Source of the DNA: the human T2T-CHM13v2.0 reference genome, Homo sapiens
NCBI RefSeq assembly: GCF_009914755.1
Contig: NC_060947.1
Strand: one strand, 5' to 3'
DNA: 64,000 nt
Part shown: piece by piece, positions 7,096-30,193 of the stretch
Numbering within the stretch: position 1 is the first letter of the stretch
How the letters are laid out: each line of letters begins with the position of its first letter
The notes under the pieces: model-generated
Seen by the model: only the letters and a program-made list of their open reading frames with translations
Told to the model about the DNA's origin: nothing
Databases searched by the model: none
Position numbers and translations under genes: made by a program

Positions 7096-7876
7096 TCTAT
7101 TGGGCTTTGAGCTTCTGGAAAACAGGCCCCACAGACATTCCAAGTATTCTAATCATGATCCATTATGCATAAAGAGAAGCAATAGAGACAGAGACGGTGG
7201 CCCACTGTTCTGGCTGCACCGTCTGGCATAGCTGCCTCCTGGGCTGAATATCATATGGACCAGCCTCAGCTTCCTCTCTGGCCCTAGCGAGGCTACCTGG
7301 CCCTCAGGGCCATGGAGCTTTCTGGGAGCTGTCTCACTGCACTGCAAGGGGCTTCAGGGAGTTGCCAGATCCAGTCTTATGCTGCCAGGCAGGTCCAGGA
7401 CAAGACACCTCAAACAGGTGGCTAGAGGTTCCTAGAGAGGGAGAGGCTACCAGCCCTGCTGGGAACTTGGCCTGGGGTTCACCCAGCCTGACAGGCAGGA
7501 AGGGCTCCCCCAGCTTCCACGGGGTTTGCCGGGGGAGGGTGGGCCTCCTCACCCTTGTGTGTGGCCTGGAGTTCGTGGCAGCAAGCTGCAGAGGGACTCG
7601 CCCACATTAGGCCAAAGTGAGCCCAGGTGTCTTGCCTGGACAGGGCTGCTGTTTCAGTGCCAATTCAAGCCTGGGTAACCACTGCCCTTTCAATGGGGTG
7701 AAGCTTAGTGACTGAAGAGTCTTCCTATTGCAGTTTAGGACCGTGGGCTCTTCCACTGGCCCACAGGAGATAAGGAGCAGCTCAGTACTCTGCCTGGGGC
7801 TCGACAGATGGAGGATAGGCTGGATAAACTGAGATTGGCCCTCAGTTCTCTCCTAGTCTGGGTTTTCTCATTAACT
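7096..7876 (+). repeat. Arm A of non-TE inverted duplication (partner 29597-30193)
   Basis: manual alignment to the reverse complement of 29597-30193; 7096-7189 is identical. Confidence 0.95.
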
Positions 7877-7884
7877 GAAAGGGG

Positions 7885-8430
7885 GCAATGTGATGTAATG
7901 GAAAGGACATTCGATTTGAGATTGGACAAACTTGTGTTTGAATCCTTGCTCTGCCATTTTGTCCAGATGTGACCTTGGGAAAGTTACTTAACCTTTCTAG
8001 GCTTCAGTTTCCTCAGTTGTAAAATGAGAATAAAAATAGCATCTTCTTCCAGCTGGGTGTGGTGGCTCACGCCTGTAAGCCCAGCATTCAGAGGTCAGGA
8101 GCTGAAGACCAGCCTGGCCAACATCTTGAAACCCCACCTCTACTAAAATTACAAAAAAAAAAAATTAGCTGGGCATGGTGGTGCACACCTGTAATCCTAG
8201 CTACTCAGGAGGCTGAGACAGGAGAATTGCTTGAACCTGGGAGGTGGAGGTTGCAGTGAGCTGAGATTGAGCCACTGCACTCCAGCCTGGGCAACAGAGT
8301 GGGACTCCATCTCATAATAATAATAATAATAATAATAATAATAATAATAATAATATCTTCCTCAAAAGTTGGCTGTGAAGATTAAAGGTATCTTGAACAT
8401 AGTGTACAGATGATAAATATTAGTAAATAT
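7885..8430 (+). mobile_element. MIR interrupted by AluS (8050-8354, (TAA)n tail)
   Basis: gtgaccttgggaaagttacttaacctttctaggcttcagtttcctc; Alu flanked by atcttc duplication. Confidence 0.85.
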
Positions 8431-8800
8431 TAGCTTACGCCACTTTTTTTTTTTTTACCCTAATGGGTCATACAGATTTTTTTTTGAAAAAACATGCAGG
8501 GACTATCTCAATTTCTGTTGATCTAAACATTGCTTTAAATAAACGTGCCACTGCCTAGAGGTTTAGACAGCATTTTGCTATAGGGAAATGGGGCTGTGAT
8601 GAGAAGTCTTACAGCAGGATCTCACTGGTATATTCAGAACTTTTCATGCCTTTGGTGTTTTCTTCAGGGCCCTCTTCGAATTTCTTTTCACCACCTCACA
8701 GAAGGGCTCCAGATTGGACTCAGAACACTGGGTAAGTTTTCATCACTGCCAAGCCAAGTGGAAGAATGCCTTCTTGTTTTTGCAGATTATTGTTTTTGAA

Positions 8801-8844
8801 CAAATACAAAATGTTCATTTAACATAATGAACATTTTGTATTTG
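8801..8844. repeat. Perfect 19-bp inverted repeat with 6-nt loop
   Basis: caaatacaaaatgttcatt-taacat-aatgaacattttgtatttg. Confidence 0.95.
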
Positions 8845-8859
8845 AAAATAATCAATATC

Positions 8860-9715
8860 TCAGCCTGGGCAACATGGCGAATCCCCTTTTCTCAACAAAA
8901 ATCAGATGACCTGTAGTCCTGTTACCGGTGGAGGGTGTCCAGGTTCTTGGCGTTTTGAACAAAGAAGTGGAGAGAATGCACAAACAAAGCAAGAAAAGAA
9001 TGAAGCAACAAAAGCAGAGATTGATTGAAAATGAAAGTACACTCCACAGGGTGGGAGCAGGCCAGAGCAGCTGCTTAAGGGCCCCAGATACAGAATCTTC
9101 TCGGGTACAAATACCCCCTAGAGGTTTCCCATTGGCCACCTGGTGTTCACTCCATGTAAATGAAGTGGTGGCCTGCAATCATTCTGATTGGCTGCTTTCT
9201 ACATTCTGCTTTCTGCTGAAGTGAAGTTACAAAGGACACACTCCTATGCAAACATCTGATTGGTTGCAGGAAGCAACCAATCAGAGGCTAAAGTGAAGTT
9301 ACAACGTTGCACTTCTATGCAAATGAATTCTTGGCCTGCAATCAGTGTGATTGGTTGGATACAGCAATCAATCAGAGGCTGAAGTGAAGTTACAAAGTTT
9401 CTTTCAATTTCCCATCTGCCAGTGCAGAAAAGGCGGGGCTTTGCAAAGAGAGTAGCCTCTGGTCCTTTTGTTACTCAGGAGTGGATAGTTAGGGTTTTCC
9501 TTTCTAACTAAATTGTTCTAGGAAGTCAGTGTGAAACGGCCTTAGGTTCTCTGCCTCCAGACCCTAATCTCCTGCCTCAGTCTCAGGCTACAGGCTGGAG
9601 GCAGAAGTGGGAGGATTGCTTGAGCTCAGGAGGTTGAGGCTGCAGTGAACCGACATCATGTCACCGCACTCTAGCCTGGGTAAGAGTGAGACCCTGTCTC
9701 AAAAAAGAATAAAAA
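8860..9715 (+). mobile_element. AluJ split by an LTR insertion
   Basis: cagcctgggcaacatgg...cctgtagtcc, then the LTR, then ggaggcagaagtgggaggattgcttgagctc...gagaccctgtctc. Confidence 0.85.
8920..9579 (-). mobile_element. MER51A solo LTR (ERV1)
   Basis: reverse strand begins tgaggcaggagattagggtctggaggcagagaacctaaggccgtttcac; TG...CA termini; 4-bp TSD gtcc/gtct; repeated CCAAT units. Confidence 0.87.
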
Positions 9716-9854
9716 TAATGAATATTGTCATTTAACTTAAAAAAATTATATTGGAATAATGATATGTGAAGTTGTATTAAGTGAGATAATATAGGTAAAG
9801 TGCCCGACATGGAATAGGTATACAATAATTAGAAGCGTATGTATAGATATAAAA

Positions 9855-10163
9855 TTTTTTTTTTTTTTTTTGTGACAGGGTCTTGCTCTGTCACCCAGCA
9901 GGCTGGAGTGCAGTGGCACAATCTCAGCTCACTGCAGCCTTGATTTCCCAGGCTCAAACAATCCTTCCGCCTCAGCCTTCTGAGTAGCTGAGACTACAGA
10001 AGCACACCACCACACCCAGCTATTTATTTTTATTTTTGTTTTTAGTAGAGATGATGTCTCGCTATGTTGCCCAAGCTGGTCTGGAACTTGTGAGCTCAAG
10101 CAATCCTCCCACCTCAGCCTCCTAAAGTGCTGGGATTACAGGCATGAGCCACCATACCTAGCC
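9855..10163 (-). mobile_element. AluJ
   Basis: antisense dimer. Confidence 0.9.
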
Positions 10164-28157: not shown

Positions 28158-28234
28158 GAAAATTTCAATAAACAGCATTGGAATAACTGATCAACAATCT
28201 GATGCCCTCAAAATTAATTACAGGTATCTTTAAA

Positions 28235-28775
28235 AAATCTCTTTTATTTCAATAGCTTTAGGGATACAAGGGGTTTTTGGTTGCATGGATGAATTGTATA
28301 GTGGTCAAGTCTAGGATTTTAGTGCACCTGTCACCCGAATAGTGTACATTGTACCCAATAGGTAGTTTTTCTTTTTCTTTTTCTTTTTTTTTTTTTTGAG
28401 CGGAGTCTCGCTGTCACCCAGGCTGGAGTGCAGTGGCGCGATCTTGGCTCACTGCAAGCTCTGCCTCCCGGGTTCACGTTCACACCATTCTCCTGCCTCA
28501 GCCTCCCGAGTAGCTCGGACTACAGGCGCCTGCCACCTCGCCCGGCTAATTTCTTGTATTTTTAGTAGAGACGCGGTTTCACTATGTTAGCCAGGATGGT
28601 GGTCTCGATCTCCTGACCTCGTGATCCGCCCGCCTCGGCCTCCGAAAGTGCTGGGATTACAGGCGTGAGCCACCGCGCCCTGCCCCCAATAGGTAGTTTT
28701 TCATCCCTCAACCTCCTCCAACCCTACCCTCTTCTGCATCTCCAATATCCATTATACCACTCCGTATGCCTTTCT
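28235..28775 (-). mobile_element. L1P 3'-end fragment interrupted by AluY (28370-28685)
   Basis: ttttggttgcatggatgaattgtatagtgg...gtcacccgaatagtgtacattgtacccaatagg; AluY TSD cccaataggtagttttt. Confidence 0.85.
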
Positions 28776-28849
28776 ATCAGGTGTTTATTGAATATGTAAA
28801 ATATGCTGGCCTGCAATGTGGTGGGTGGGGAGACTCAAAGGACAAGGGG

Positions 28850-29070
28850 TGACCATTTACTGAGTGCCTGTTATTTACCAGGTATATTTTGGATGTTGAC
28901 TCATTTCATTATCCAACCATCCTGAGAGGTAGGTTATCACTGTAGTAGTAGCACAGATGAGGAAACTGAGGCTCAGAGAGACCAGTAGCATCATTAAGCC
29001 TACACATTAAGTCAGTGGAAATGCTGGGTTCAGGAGGCAGGTCTGCCTACATCAGAGCCTGTGCTCATTA
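28850..29070 (-). mobile_element. MIR
   Basis: catttactgagtgcctg...acagatgaggaaactgaggctcagagag. Confidence 0.8.
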
Positions 29071-29429
29071 ATTATATTCCATTTTTCTTCCATTATACAT
29101 ACAGTCATACACATGCAATATGATTCCTGGCTTTTCAGCCTTACGGTCTAGTTGAGAAGGTGAGATAAATAAAAATACAAATACAGGCAGTTGTTGGTTT
29201 ATGGATACACATTACAGATGGAAGTATTTCGCGTATCCCAGCTGGAAACTCCATCTCTTGGGATTTCTAGGAGGCCGGGCTGGGCTGCAGGAAACTTGGC
29301 TTTTATTCACACCAGCTTTGCTTCTGGGTTTTTTTAATGCTTGGACCAAGGCTGGAATCCACTGTTGTTGTCCCGAGTCTTTGGATTGCAAATCTAGGCT
29401 TCATTCCACCCTGCTTTCAGCAACTAAGA

Positions 29430-29589
29430 CATTGCTTCTCAAACTTTAATGCACATACGAATCACCTGGGGATCTTATTAAAATGCAGATTCTGAATGAG
29501 TAGGTGTAAAGGTGGGAGCTGAGATTCTGCTTTTCTACAAAACTCCCAGGTGATGCTCATGTGACTAGTTTGAGGATTGGGTAGCAGGC
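29430..29589 (+). mobile_element. MER5A1-like hAT transposon
   Basis: gcttctcaaactttaatgcacatacgaatcacctggggatcttattaaaatgcagattctg...ctcccaggtgatgc. Confidence 0.85.
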
Positions 29590-29596
29590 ACTAAGT

Positions 29597-30193
29597 AGTT
29601 AAATGGGTTAGCCCAGACTAAAACCTCAGTCTATCTGGCTCCAGGCAAAGTGCTGGGCTGCTCCTTATTTCCTGTGGGCTAGAGGAAGAGCATAGAACCC
29701 TGAACTGTACCAGGAAGGATCGCCAGTCACTAAGCCTCATCCAATTGAAAGGGCAGTGATTGCCCACTCATGTCAGCAGCGAAATGGCAGCTCTGTCCAG
29801 GGAAGACACCCGGGCTCACTTTGGCCTAATGTGAGTGAGTCCCTCTGCAGTCTGCCCCAAGACCTCCAGGCCACACAAGGGTGAGGAGGCCCAACGCTTC
29901 CCTTGGGAGCTGGGGGAGCCCTTCCTGTCTGTCAGGCTGGGTCAATCCTGGGCCAGTATCCTAGCAGAGCTGGTGGCCTCCCTTTCTCTAGACACCTTTA
30001 GCCACCCATCTGGGGCGTCTTGTCCTGGACCTGCCTGGCAGCAGAAGACAGAGGCAGCTATGCCAGATGGTGCAGCCAGGACAGTGGGCCACCGTCTCCG
30101 TCTCTATTGCTTCTCTTTATGCATAATGGATCATGATTAGAATACTTGGAATGTCTGTGGGGCCTGTTTTCCAGAAGCTCAAAGCCCAATAGA
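29597..30193 (-). repeat. Arm B of non-TE inverted duplication (partner 7096-7876)
   Basis: reverse complement aligns to arm A and lacks A 7239-7373. Confidence 0.95.

What the first reader, a model, noticed from the sequence alone, without database searches (positions are those of the whole stretch)
7096..30193. Non-TE inverted duplication 22 kb apart with a sharp identity step: candidate inversion or gene-conversion system
Seen in sequence: 7096-7876 aligns to the reverse complement of 29597-30193. The outer block (7096-7238 vs 30193-30051) differs at only 3 of 143 positions, all transitions and two at CpG, and includes a 94-bp perfect run (7096-7189). Exactly at the end of that block arm B lacks ~135 bp (A 7239-7373). 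Beyond the gap the arms are much more diverged (roughly 80-85% by eye, with several indels, fading further inward). I do not recognise the sequence as a repeat family. Established knowledge: inverted repeats mediate NAHR inversions and are homogenised by gene conversion, and staggered-break inversions leave short inverted duplications at breakpoints. Inference: this is an old inverted pair whose outer ends were recently homogenised or recently copied, so the ~22 kb between them may be a polymorphic or lineage-specific inversion.
Basis: partly seen in the sequence, partly recalled or inferred. Interest (0 to 1): 0.85.

Follow-up and report, generated by a model that had tools for sequence, protein, structure and literature searches.

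The report
Old inverted duplication, partly homogenised ends
Two short copies of the same unique DNA face each other 22 kb apart between GPC4 and GPC3 on the human X, and their outer ends look much younger than the rest, most likely because one copy overwrote the other; there is no sign that the DNA between them flips, so it is an ordinary relic.

Summary
Arm A (7093-7823, +) matches arm B (30196-29613, -). The outer 146 nt are 97.3% identical. Arm A carries 134-135 bp that arm B lacks. The inner part is 84.1% identical at aligned sites, or 78.9% counting gaps. The identity step is not chance: 4 of 5000 permutations reach the max-chi-square, and 0 of 5000 reach the 94-bp perfect run. It is less sharp than described. 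The best change point is after 7406, 33 bp beyond the indel.

In the whole CHM13 genome the arms have only these two copies, while neighbouring old repeats give 486-660 candidates. The arms are therefore not an interspersed repeat family. No coding, structured-RNA, transposase or CpG-island signal was found.

Best reading: an old local inverted duplication whose terminal tract was later homogenised by non-allelic gene conversion, and arm B then lost about 135 bp. The main rival is purifying selection on that tract.

The inversion idea has no support. A 41-genome inversion callset in T2T coordinates has no call here. The uninterrupted homology is also below published recombination thresholds. 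Interest is low.

The parts
7093..7238 (+). Arm A, outer high-identity block
   Evidence: 97.3% to 30196-30051. From 7096 there are 3 transitions in 142 sites and a 94-bp perfect run. GC 0.479, CpG o/e 0.24.
7239..7373 (+). Arm A-only segment (134-135 bp) absent from arm B. Probably deleted in B.
   Evidence: Gap in the alignments. Single copy in the genome. Not a tandem copy of neighbouring sequence: local scores lie within the shuffle null.
7374..7406 (+). Continuation of the high-identity tract beyond the indel (33 bp, 1 mismatch at 7379)
   Evidence: The max-chi-square change point falls after 7406. Mismatch list.
7407..7823 (+). Arm A, inner diverged block
   Evidence: Together with 7374-7406: 66 mismatches in 415 aligned sites, K2P 0.183, transitions:transversions 48:18, 10 small indels. 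Local alignment ends at 7823.
7824..29612 (.). Spacer (21,789 bp) between the arms. It holds two RefSeq enhancer features (9141-9692 and 12317-13029, per the hub note) and many Alu-like insertions.
   Evidence: 5,998 of 21,789 bp are Alu-like, in 37 blocks. No other low-copy inverted match to the arm flanks. No mobile-element protein domain in 201 ORFs.
29613..30050 (-). Arm B, inner block (counterpart of 7374-7823)
30051..30196 (-). Arm B, outer high-identity block

Best explanation
This is a relic, not a working system.

A unique, non-coding, CpG-depleted stretch of about 0.73 kb was duplicated locally in inverted orientation long ago. By inference from K2P 0.18 and recalled neutral rates of 1-2.2e-9 per site per year, that was roughly 40-90 million years ago. 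The spacer was then at most about 16 kb, because 6 kb of it is now Alu-like.

The two copies then decayed neutrally, except for the terminal tract: arm A 7096-7406, about 311 bp when both arms still carried the 135-bp segment. That tract last shared an ancestor roughly eight times more recently (K2P 0.02).

The most likely mechanism is intrachromosomal non-allelic gene conversion. A break in one arm was repaired from the other arm, once or repeatedly, and this kept the one stretch of uninterrupted homology alike. Arm B then lost 134-135 bp from the middle of the tract. That cut the homology into pieces of 143 and 33 bp, too short to keep converting. The 3-4 differences seen now (one CpG decay in each arm, plus 7209 and 7379) accumulated afterwards.

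Shown: the geometry, the copy number, the identity step, and the absence of coding, RNA or mobile-element signals. Inferred: conversion, the order of events, and the dates.
For: - Only two copies in 3.1 Gb. The same search returns 660 and 486 candidates for the old repeats abutting the arms, so it can see repeat families at 75-85% identity.
- Both outer flanks are single copy.
- Significant change of divergence along the arms: 4 of 5000 permutations reach the max-chi-square; 0 of 5000 reach the 94-bp run. Fisher p = 2.4e-6.
- The high-identity tract starts within 3 bp of the outer edge of homology. That is where a conversion tract must stop, whereas a constrained element has no reason to end there.
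- The tract crosses the indel by 33 bp. Its former length of about 311 bp is of the order of the minimal segments quoted for mammalian recombination (PMC3966225, passages).
- The differences in the tract are transitions, with one CpG decay in each arm, as expected for young neutral divergence.
- The inner block has a neutral-looking spectrum: transitions:transversions 48:18, CpG o/e 0.15.
- No alternative function was detected. No Rfam hit in the arms. Fold z-scores from -0.25 to +1.41. No shared ORF. 0 of 201 ORFs carry a mobile-element domain.
Against: - No outgroup or population sequence could be examined, so concerted evolution (paralogues clustering within species) was not shown.
- The review read says conversion signatures are almost confined to duplications above 95% identity and proposes about 92% as a minimum. 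The arms as a whole are about 87% identical. Conversion therefore needs the tract to have stayed alike continuously, or to have happened against the odds.
- The evidence that the tract crosses the indel is modest: 1 mismatch in 33 bp. By my arithmetic, at a 16% mismatch rate that has a probability of about 0.02.
- The inner block has patches of 94-96% identity (7481-7571). Patchiness alone is therefore not unique to the outer tract, although heterogeneity within the inner block is not significant (371 of 2000 permutations).
- Purifying selection on the tract predicts the same human-only picture.
Confidence: 0.5

Rival explanations
1. Purifying selection. The outer tract is a duplicated functional non-coding element, for example a transcription-factor binding module of the GPC4-GPC3 regulatory desert. 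Both copies are kept nearly unchanged by selection while the rest of the duplicate decays.
For: - The same identity step.
- The locus is a gene desert with RefSeq enhancer features nearby (hub note).
- Conversion between arms of about 87% identity is disfavoured by published thresholds (PMC3966225).
- The outer block differs in composition from the rest of the arm: GC 0.479 vs 0.593.
Against: - The tract begins within 3 bp of the duplication edge, which would be a coincidence under selection.
- Arm B has lost 134-135 bp from the middle of the high-identity tract.
- RefSeq lists no functional element on either arm (hub note).
- No structured RNA, Rfam family or ORF.
- CpG decay has occurred in both arms.
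Confidence: 0.25
2. Recent secondary copying. The outer tract was newly written into one arm in a single repair or rearrangement event: a templated patch with end-joining that also made the 135-bp deletion, or a breakpoint duplication of a younger inversion with staggered breaks.
For: - The deletion lies next to or within the young tract, and there is a 1-nt ambiguous base at the junction.
- The geometry (matching outer ends of a segment) is what staggered-break inversions leave. That model is recalled from the Drosophila literature and was not read here.
Against: - The young tract is collinear with the old homology on both arms, so a homology-independent event would have had to land exactly at the old repeat.
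- High identity continues 33 bp past the deletion, which a single patch ending at the deletion does not predict.
- No inversion is called here in 41 genomes.
Confidence: 0.1
3. The arms are long terminal inverted repeats of one large, old DNA transposon (or otherwise belong to a repeat family), and the spacer is its decayed interior.
For: - The arms are terminal, inverted and sharply bounded on the outside.
- The five bases outside each arm are alike at 4 of 5 positions (TCAAG at 7088-7092, TCGAG at 30197-30201, read). I estimate a chance probability of a few percent per boundary choice.
Against: - Only two copies in the genome, whereas control repeats give hundreds of candidates.
- 0 of 201 stop-to-stop ORFs of 50 aa or more in 7000-30300 hit a transposase, integrase, polymerase or capsid family at E <= 0.01. 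The only hit above its cutoff is DUF5559, in an Alu-like stretch.
- The model does not explain the identity step.
Confidence: 0.04
4. Chance or local mutation-rate heterogeneity in a uniformly old duplicate.
For: The inner block is itself patchy, 74-96% in 50-site windows.
Against: 4 of 5000 permutations reach the max-chi-square and 0 of 5000 reach the longest run. CpG content does not explain it.
Confidence: 0.03

Closest known systems
Inverted low-copy repeats that mediate NAHR inversions in humans (e.g. HsInv0389 at FLNA/EMD and HsInv0393, 0396, 0397, 0403 on chrX; table in PMC3961182)
   Same: Two inverted copies of non-TE or segmentally duplicated sequence flank a segment of tens of kb on chrX.
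   Different: The listed chrX repeats are 4.3-32 kb long. Repeats in PMC6748972 supplementary file 10 have identities such as 98.4-99.5%. Here the arms are 0.58-0.73 kb, about 87% identical, with a longest perfect run of 94 bp. No inversion is recorded at this place.
Interlocus (non-allelic) gene conversion tracts between duplicated sequences (PMC3966225, passages read; PMC3924818, listing and abstract only)
   Same: A contiguous tract is far more alike than its flanks, bounded by a discontinuity in homology, and a few hundred bp long.
   Different: Usually reported between paralogues above 92-95% identity. Here the surrounding arms are only about 84% identical. Donor, direction and timing are unknown. 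Concerted evolution was not tested.
Sex-chromosome palindromes kept alike by arm-to-arm conversion (PMC3723533, abstract only)
   Same: Inverted arms on a sex chromosome, with arm-to-arm conversion as the homogenising force.
   Different: Those arms exceed 99.9% identity and conversion tracts reach several kb (abstract). Here only about 180 aligned bp are alike, the spacer is 37 times the arm length, and conversion appears to have stopped.
Inverted duplications left at breakpoints of staggered-break inversions (recalled from work on Drosophila inversions; no paper read here)
   Same: A short inverted duplication of unique sequence sits at the two ends of a segment. This is a plausible origin of the original 0.73-kb pair.
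   Different: It cannot be tested without an outgroup that has the ancestral order, and it does not explain the two ages within the arms.

Membership tests
Interspersed repeat / transposable-element family | Many dispersed copies in the genome | tested here: not met
   2 candidates, both scored, for each arm block. 1 candidate for the A-only 135 bp. Controls with neighbouring old repeats gave 660 and 486 candidates. No Dfam/RepeatMasker was available, so families below about 70% identity could be missed.
Interspersed repeat / transposable-element family | Element-encoded protein remnants between terminal repeats (for an autonomous element with long TIRs) | tested here: not met
   0 of 201 ORFs of 50 aa or more in 7000-30300 match a transposase, integrase, RT or polymerase family at E <= 0.01.
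Segmental duplication (conventional definition, recalled: at least 1 kb and at least 90% identity) | Length of at least 1 kb and identity of at least 90% | tested here: not met
   Arms are 731 and 584 bp, with 87.3% identity at 568 aligned sites.
NAHR-competent inverted repeat | Uninterrupted homology of at least the minimal efficient processing segment (over 200 bp in mouse, 337-456 bp in human) and about 92% overall similarity (PMC3966225) | tested here: not met
   Longest perfect run is 94 bp. The near-identical block is 143 bp and is broken by a 135-bp indel. Overall identity is 87%.
Polymorphic human inversion | Both orientations observed among human haplotypes | tested here: not met
   No chrX call beginning 1316, 1317 or 1318 in the 41-genome T2T-coordinate callset (PMC10150506 supplementary file 1). 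Not among the 7 chrX inversions of PMC6748972 or the table of PMC3961182. Larger pangenome sets were not examined.
Lineage-specific (fixed) inversion | Opposite spacer orientation in other primates or mammals | not testable with these tools
   No non-human vertebrate genome is held.
Gene-conversion tract | A contiguous segment with significantly fewer differences than the rest of the paralogous alignment | tested here: met
   Max-chi-square 22.5, reached by 4 of 5000 permutations. The 94-bp run is reached by 0 of 5000.
Gene-conversion tract | Concerted evolution: paralogues cluster within species for the tract but by paralogue outside it | not testable with these tools
   No orthologous sequences were available.
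Structured non-coding RNA gene | Rfam family match or thermodynamic stability beyond shuffles | tested here: not met
   No Rfam match inside the arms at E <= 1. Fold z-scores -0.25, +1.41, -0.19 and +0.22 for the two copies on both strands.

The most novel reading that the evidence does not exclude
The near-identical outer tracts are a selectively maintained pair of inverted regulatory modules. They bracket a 22-kb enhancer-bearing segment of the GPC4-GPC3 desert. Alternatively, they are the remaining recombination substrate of a segment that has flipped in some primate lineages. Either way the pair would be functional, not a decaying relic.
Probability: 0.12. Interest if true: 0.45.

Novelty: new member of a known kind. 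Interest (0 to 1): 0.15.

Why it matters
Mostly as a calibration case. A striking identity step in a two-copy inverted repeat does not by itself indicate an inversion system. If conversion is confirmed, the locus would be a small, clean example of a conversion island that persisted inside arms that are otherwise only about 84% identical, and that was then disabled by a deletion. That bears on how much homology non-allelic conversion needs in the human germline. If constraint is confirmed instead, it would mark a duplicated regulatory element next to the glypican genes. Neither outcome would change current understanding much.

Tried and rejected
- Repeat family: whole-genome searches of each block found only the two copies, and the controls worked.
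- Longer arms hidden behind TE insertions: 8 flank-to-flank local alignments covered inner continuations, outer flanks and the cross-junction pairs expected from a staggered-break inversion. All fell within their shuffle nulls. The window self-BLAST found no other low-copy inverted match in the region.
- Origin of the 135-bp A-only segment by tandem duplication: scores were within the null. TRF found only an 11-bp x1.9 repeat.
- Protein coding: no ORF is shared in frame between the arms, and Pfam found nothing in the arms.
- Giant transposon: no mobile-element domain in 201 ORFs.
- Structured RNA: Rfam and folding were negative.
- CpG island or promoter: CpG o/e is 0.15.
- Recombination hotspot motif: none of the 11 window matches to the 13-mer lies in the arms.
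- Known inversions: nothing at this place. The table lists gene-overlapping inversions only, so it is weak evidence.
- A full-text search for inversion together with GPC4/GPC3 returned 15 papers, none about this locus judging by title or abstract.
- Earlier scan notes were not open. The Cell 2022 inversion paper was not held. Its preprint main text names no call here, and its supplements are closed.

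
Full report

Yes. The repeat finder reports inverted arms 7093-7238 and 30051-30196: 146 nt, 97% complementary, 22,812 nt apart. 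BLAST of 6000-9000 against the window gives two inverted hits that are not Alu:
- 7093-7238 vs 30196-30051: 97.26% over 146.
- 7374-7814 vs 30049-29624: 78.9% over 441 columns.

A gapped local alignment spans 7093-7823 vs 30196-29613.
- From 7096 the outer block has 3 differences in 142 aligned sites: 7190 A/G, 7209 T/C and 7221 G/A. All are transitions, and the first and third are at CpG.
- The first difference is at 7190, so the perfect run is 94 bp.
- Arm A has 134-135 bp (to 7373) with no counterpart in arm B.
- The inner block has 66 mismatches in 415 aligned sites: 84.1% identity, K2P 0.183, 48 transitions, 18 transversions, 8 at CpG. It has 10 small indels of 1-14 bp. Sub-blocks are 84.1%, 90.2% and 78.8% identical going inward.

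**2. Is the identity step more than chance?**

Yes.
- Fisher's exact test on 3/142 vs 66/415 gives p = 2.4e-6.
- The block was chosen after looking, so I also ran a max-chi-square change-point test on the 568 aligned sites from 7096 (72 mismatches). The observed value of 22.5 is reached by 4 of 5000 permutations.
- A perfect run of 94 or more is reached by 0 of 5000 permutations.

- The best change point is after 7406, not at 7238. The 33 aligned bases just beyond the indel carry one mismatch (7379), and divergence then rises to 76% identity in 50-site windows. The young tract therefore seems to straddle the indel rather than end at it.
- Homology is not significant beyond about 7823/29613. 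The 7854-7876 vs 29620-29597 match scores 12 against a null of 10.0 +/- 1.6.

Heterogeneity within the inner block alone is not significant (371 of 2000 permutations).

**3. What are the arms?**

They are not a repeat family, as far as this genome search can see.
- The whole arm, the outer block and the inner block each return two candidates in 3.1 Gb, namely the two arms. The A-only 135 bp returns only itself.
- The same tool returns 660 candidates (40 scored, 76-89% identity) for the repeat that abuts arm B's inner end, 29440-29612.
- It returns 486 candidates for 7925-8044 just inside arm A. From memory that stretch looks like a MIR, and it is followed by an Alu.
- Both outer flanks, 6560-7092 and 30197-30620, are single copy.

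No function was detected in the arms.
- They are GC 0.55-0.57 with CpG o/e 0.15-0.16, so they are not CpG islands.
- They have no Rfam match at E <= 1.
- They have no thermodynamic structure signal: z from -0.25 to +1.41.
- No open frame is shared between the copies.

I tested the idea that the arms are long terminal repeats of one big decayed transposon. All 201 stop-to-stop ORFs of 50 aa or more in 7000-30300 were scanned against Pfam.
- None hit a transposase, integrase, polymerase, RT or capsid family at E <= 0.01.
- The only hit above its curated cutoff is DUF5559 at 13769-13954, in an Alu-like stretch.
- Three further hits are below cutoff.

No further homology exists beyond the TE insertions or between the flanks (window self-BLAST). 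The 135-bp segment is not a tandem copy of its neighbours.

**4. Most likely history**

The pair is an old local inverted duplication of about 0.73 kb of unique DNA.
- With recalled neutral rates of 1-2.2e-9 per site per year, K2P 0.183 puts the duplication at about 40-90 million years. This is inference.
- About 6.0 of the 21.8 kb of spacer is Alu-like, so the copies were originally closer together.
- The terminal tract (7096-7406 in arm A) has K2P of about 0.02, roughly one eighth of the inner value. With 3 differences (Poisson 95% interval 0.62-8.77) the date is loose.

I favour non-allelic gene conversion between the arms (confidence 0.5), for four reasons.
- The tract begins within 3 bp of the outer edge of homology.
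- It is contiguous.
- Before the deletion it was about 311 bp long, in the range quoted for efficient recombination in mammals: over 200 bp in mouse and 337-456 bp in human (PMC3966225, passages).
- Its few differences look like fresh neutral decay, with one CpG loss in each arm.

The 135-bp loss in arm B then split the tract into 143 and 33 bp, and conversion should have ceased. I read it as a deletion because the segment is unique DNA.

Against this reading, the same review states that conversion signatures are nearly confined to duplicates above 95% identity and proposes about 92% as a floor. The arms overall are 87% identical.

The main rival is purifying selection on a duplicated regulatory element (0.25). 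It cannot be separated from conversion with one human genome. The other rivals are:
- A single recent copying event: 0.10.
- A transposon with long terminal repeats: 0.04.
- Chance: 0.03.

**5. The inversion hypothesis**

Nothing supports it.
- The T2T-coordinate inversion callset for 41 genomes (PMC10150506, supplementary file 1) mentions chrX 85 times and includes calls as small as 1.3 kb. It has no chrX entry beginning 1316, 1317 or 1318. The '1316' and '1317' hits are on chr2, chr6 and chr12, and the nearest chrX call shown is 133484328-133539433.
- The 7 chrX inversions in PMC6748972 (supplementary files 10 and 11) and the chrX rows of the table in PMC3961182 lie elsewhere.
- The Strand-seq preprint (main-text passages) reports that most L1 pairs flanking inversions are over 90% identical. 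[quoted passage not shown]
- These arms are far below that. Several inverted Alu pairs in the same region offer longer homology, for example 284 nt at 85%.

Ape and monkey orientation could not be checked. No vertebrate genomes are held, and supplementary files closed. Supplements that I could not see may bear on this claim: the Cell 2022 callset, the ape-genome tables, and HPRC/HGSVC releases.

**6. Comparison with what is known, and verdict**

The structure works like a very small, worn-out version of the inverted low-copy repeats and palindromes that convert and occasionally invert. It fails the tests for every named class:
- Segmental duplication (size and identity).
- NAHR-competent repeat.
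- Palindrome.
- TE family.
- Recorded inversion.

It does meet the sequence criterion for a conversion tract. It is a new instance of a known kind of relic and of low interest.

Noticed in passing
window 29461-29559: A hairpin matches Rfam mir-544 on both strands (64.6 bits on +, just under the 66.5 gathering score; 41.9 on -). It lies inside a multi-copy old repeat (660 genome candidates) that abuts arm B's inner end. It is probably a palindromic MITE-type element and not a miRNA gene.
   Followed up: partly
window 31282-31959 vs 40054-40727: A direct low-copy repeat, 692 columns at 75.4% identity, is the strongest low-copy pair in the window. It overlaps the masked stretch 31092-31985, so it is probably two copies of an old repeat.
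   Followed up: no
window 9151-9399: Short local direct repeats (9151-9234 vs 9314-9397 at 74%; 9247-9308 vs 9337-9399 at 84%) lie inside the RefSeq enhancer feature 9141-9692. TRF shows only a 7-bp x3.7 repeat at 9192-9217.
   Followed up: no
whole window: The 13-mer hotspot-type pattern occurs 11 times, against 2.2 +/- 1.5 expected from shuffles (0 of 100 shuffles reach 11). Five of the 11 share the ending TTGGCCTC or TTAGCCTC, and I think these sit in Alu copies. None is in the arms.
   Followed up: no
window 13769-13954 (-): An ORF of 62 aa matches Pfam DUF5559 at E = 4.5e-7 (30.4 bits, cutoff 25). It overlaps the masked stretch 13838-14485 and an Alu-like match at 13913-14144, so it is likely a repeat-derived frame.
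   Followed up: no
window 30617-30779: A purine-rich tract (GA-rich, about 30630-30680) is followed by a pyrimidine-rich tract (about 30730-30760), just before an Alu. It draws weak sub-threshold hits to several plant miRNA hairpin families (best 28.2 bits against gathering 80). This is low-complexity pairing, not a gene.
   Followed up: no
window 8788-8857: A small imperfect palindrome (70 nt, 77% self-complementary) was found by self-BLAST.
   Followed up: no
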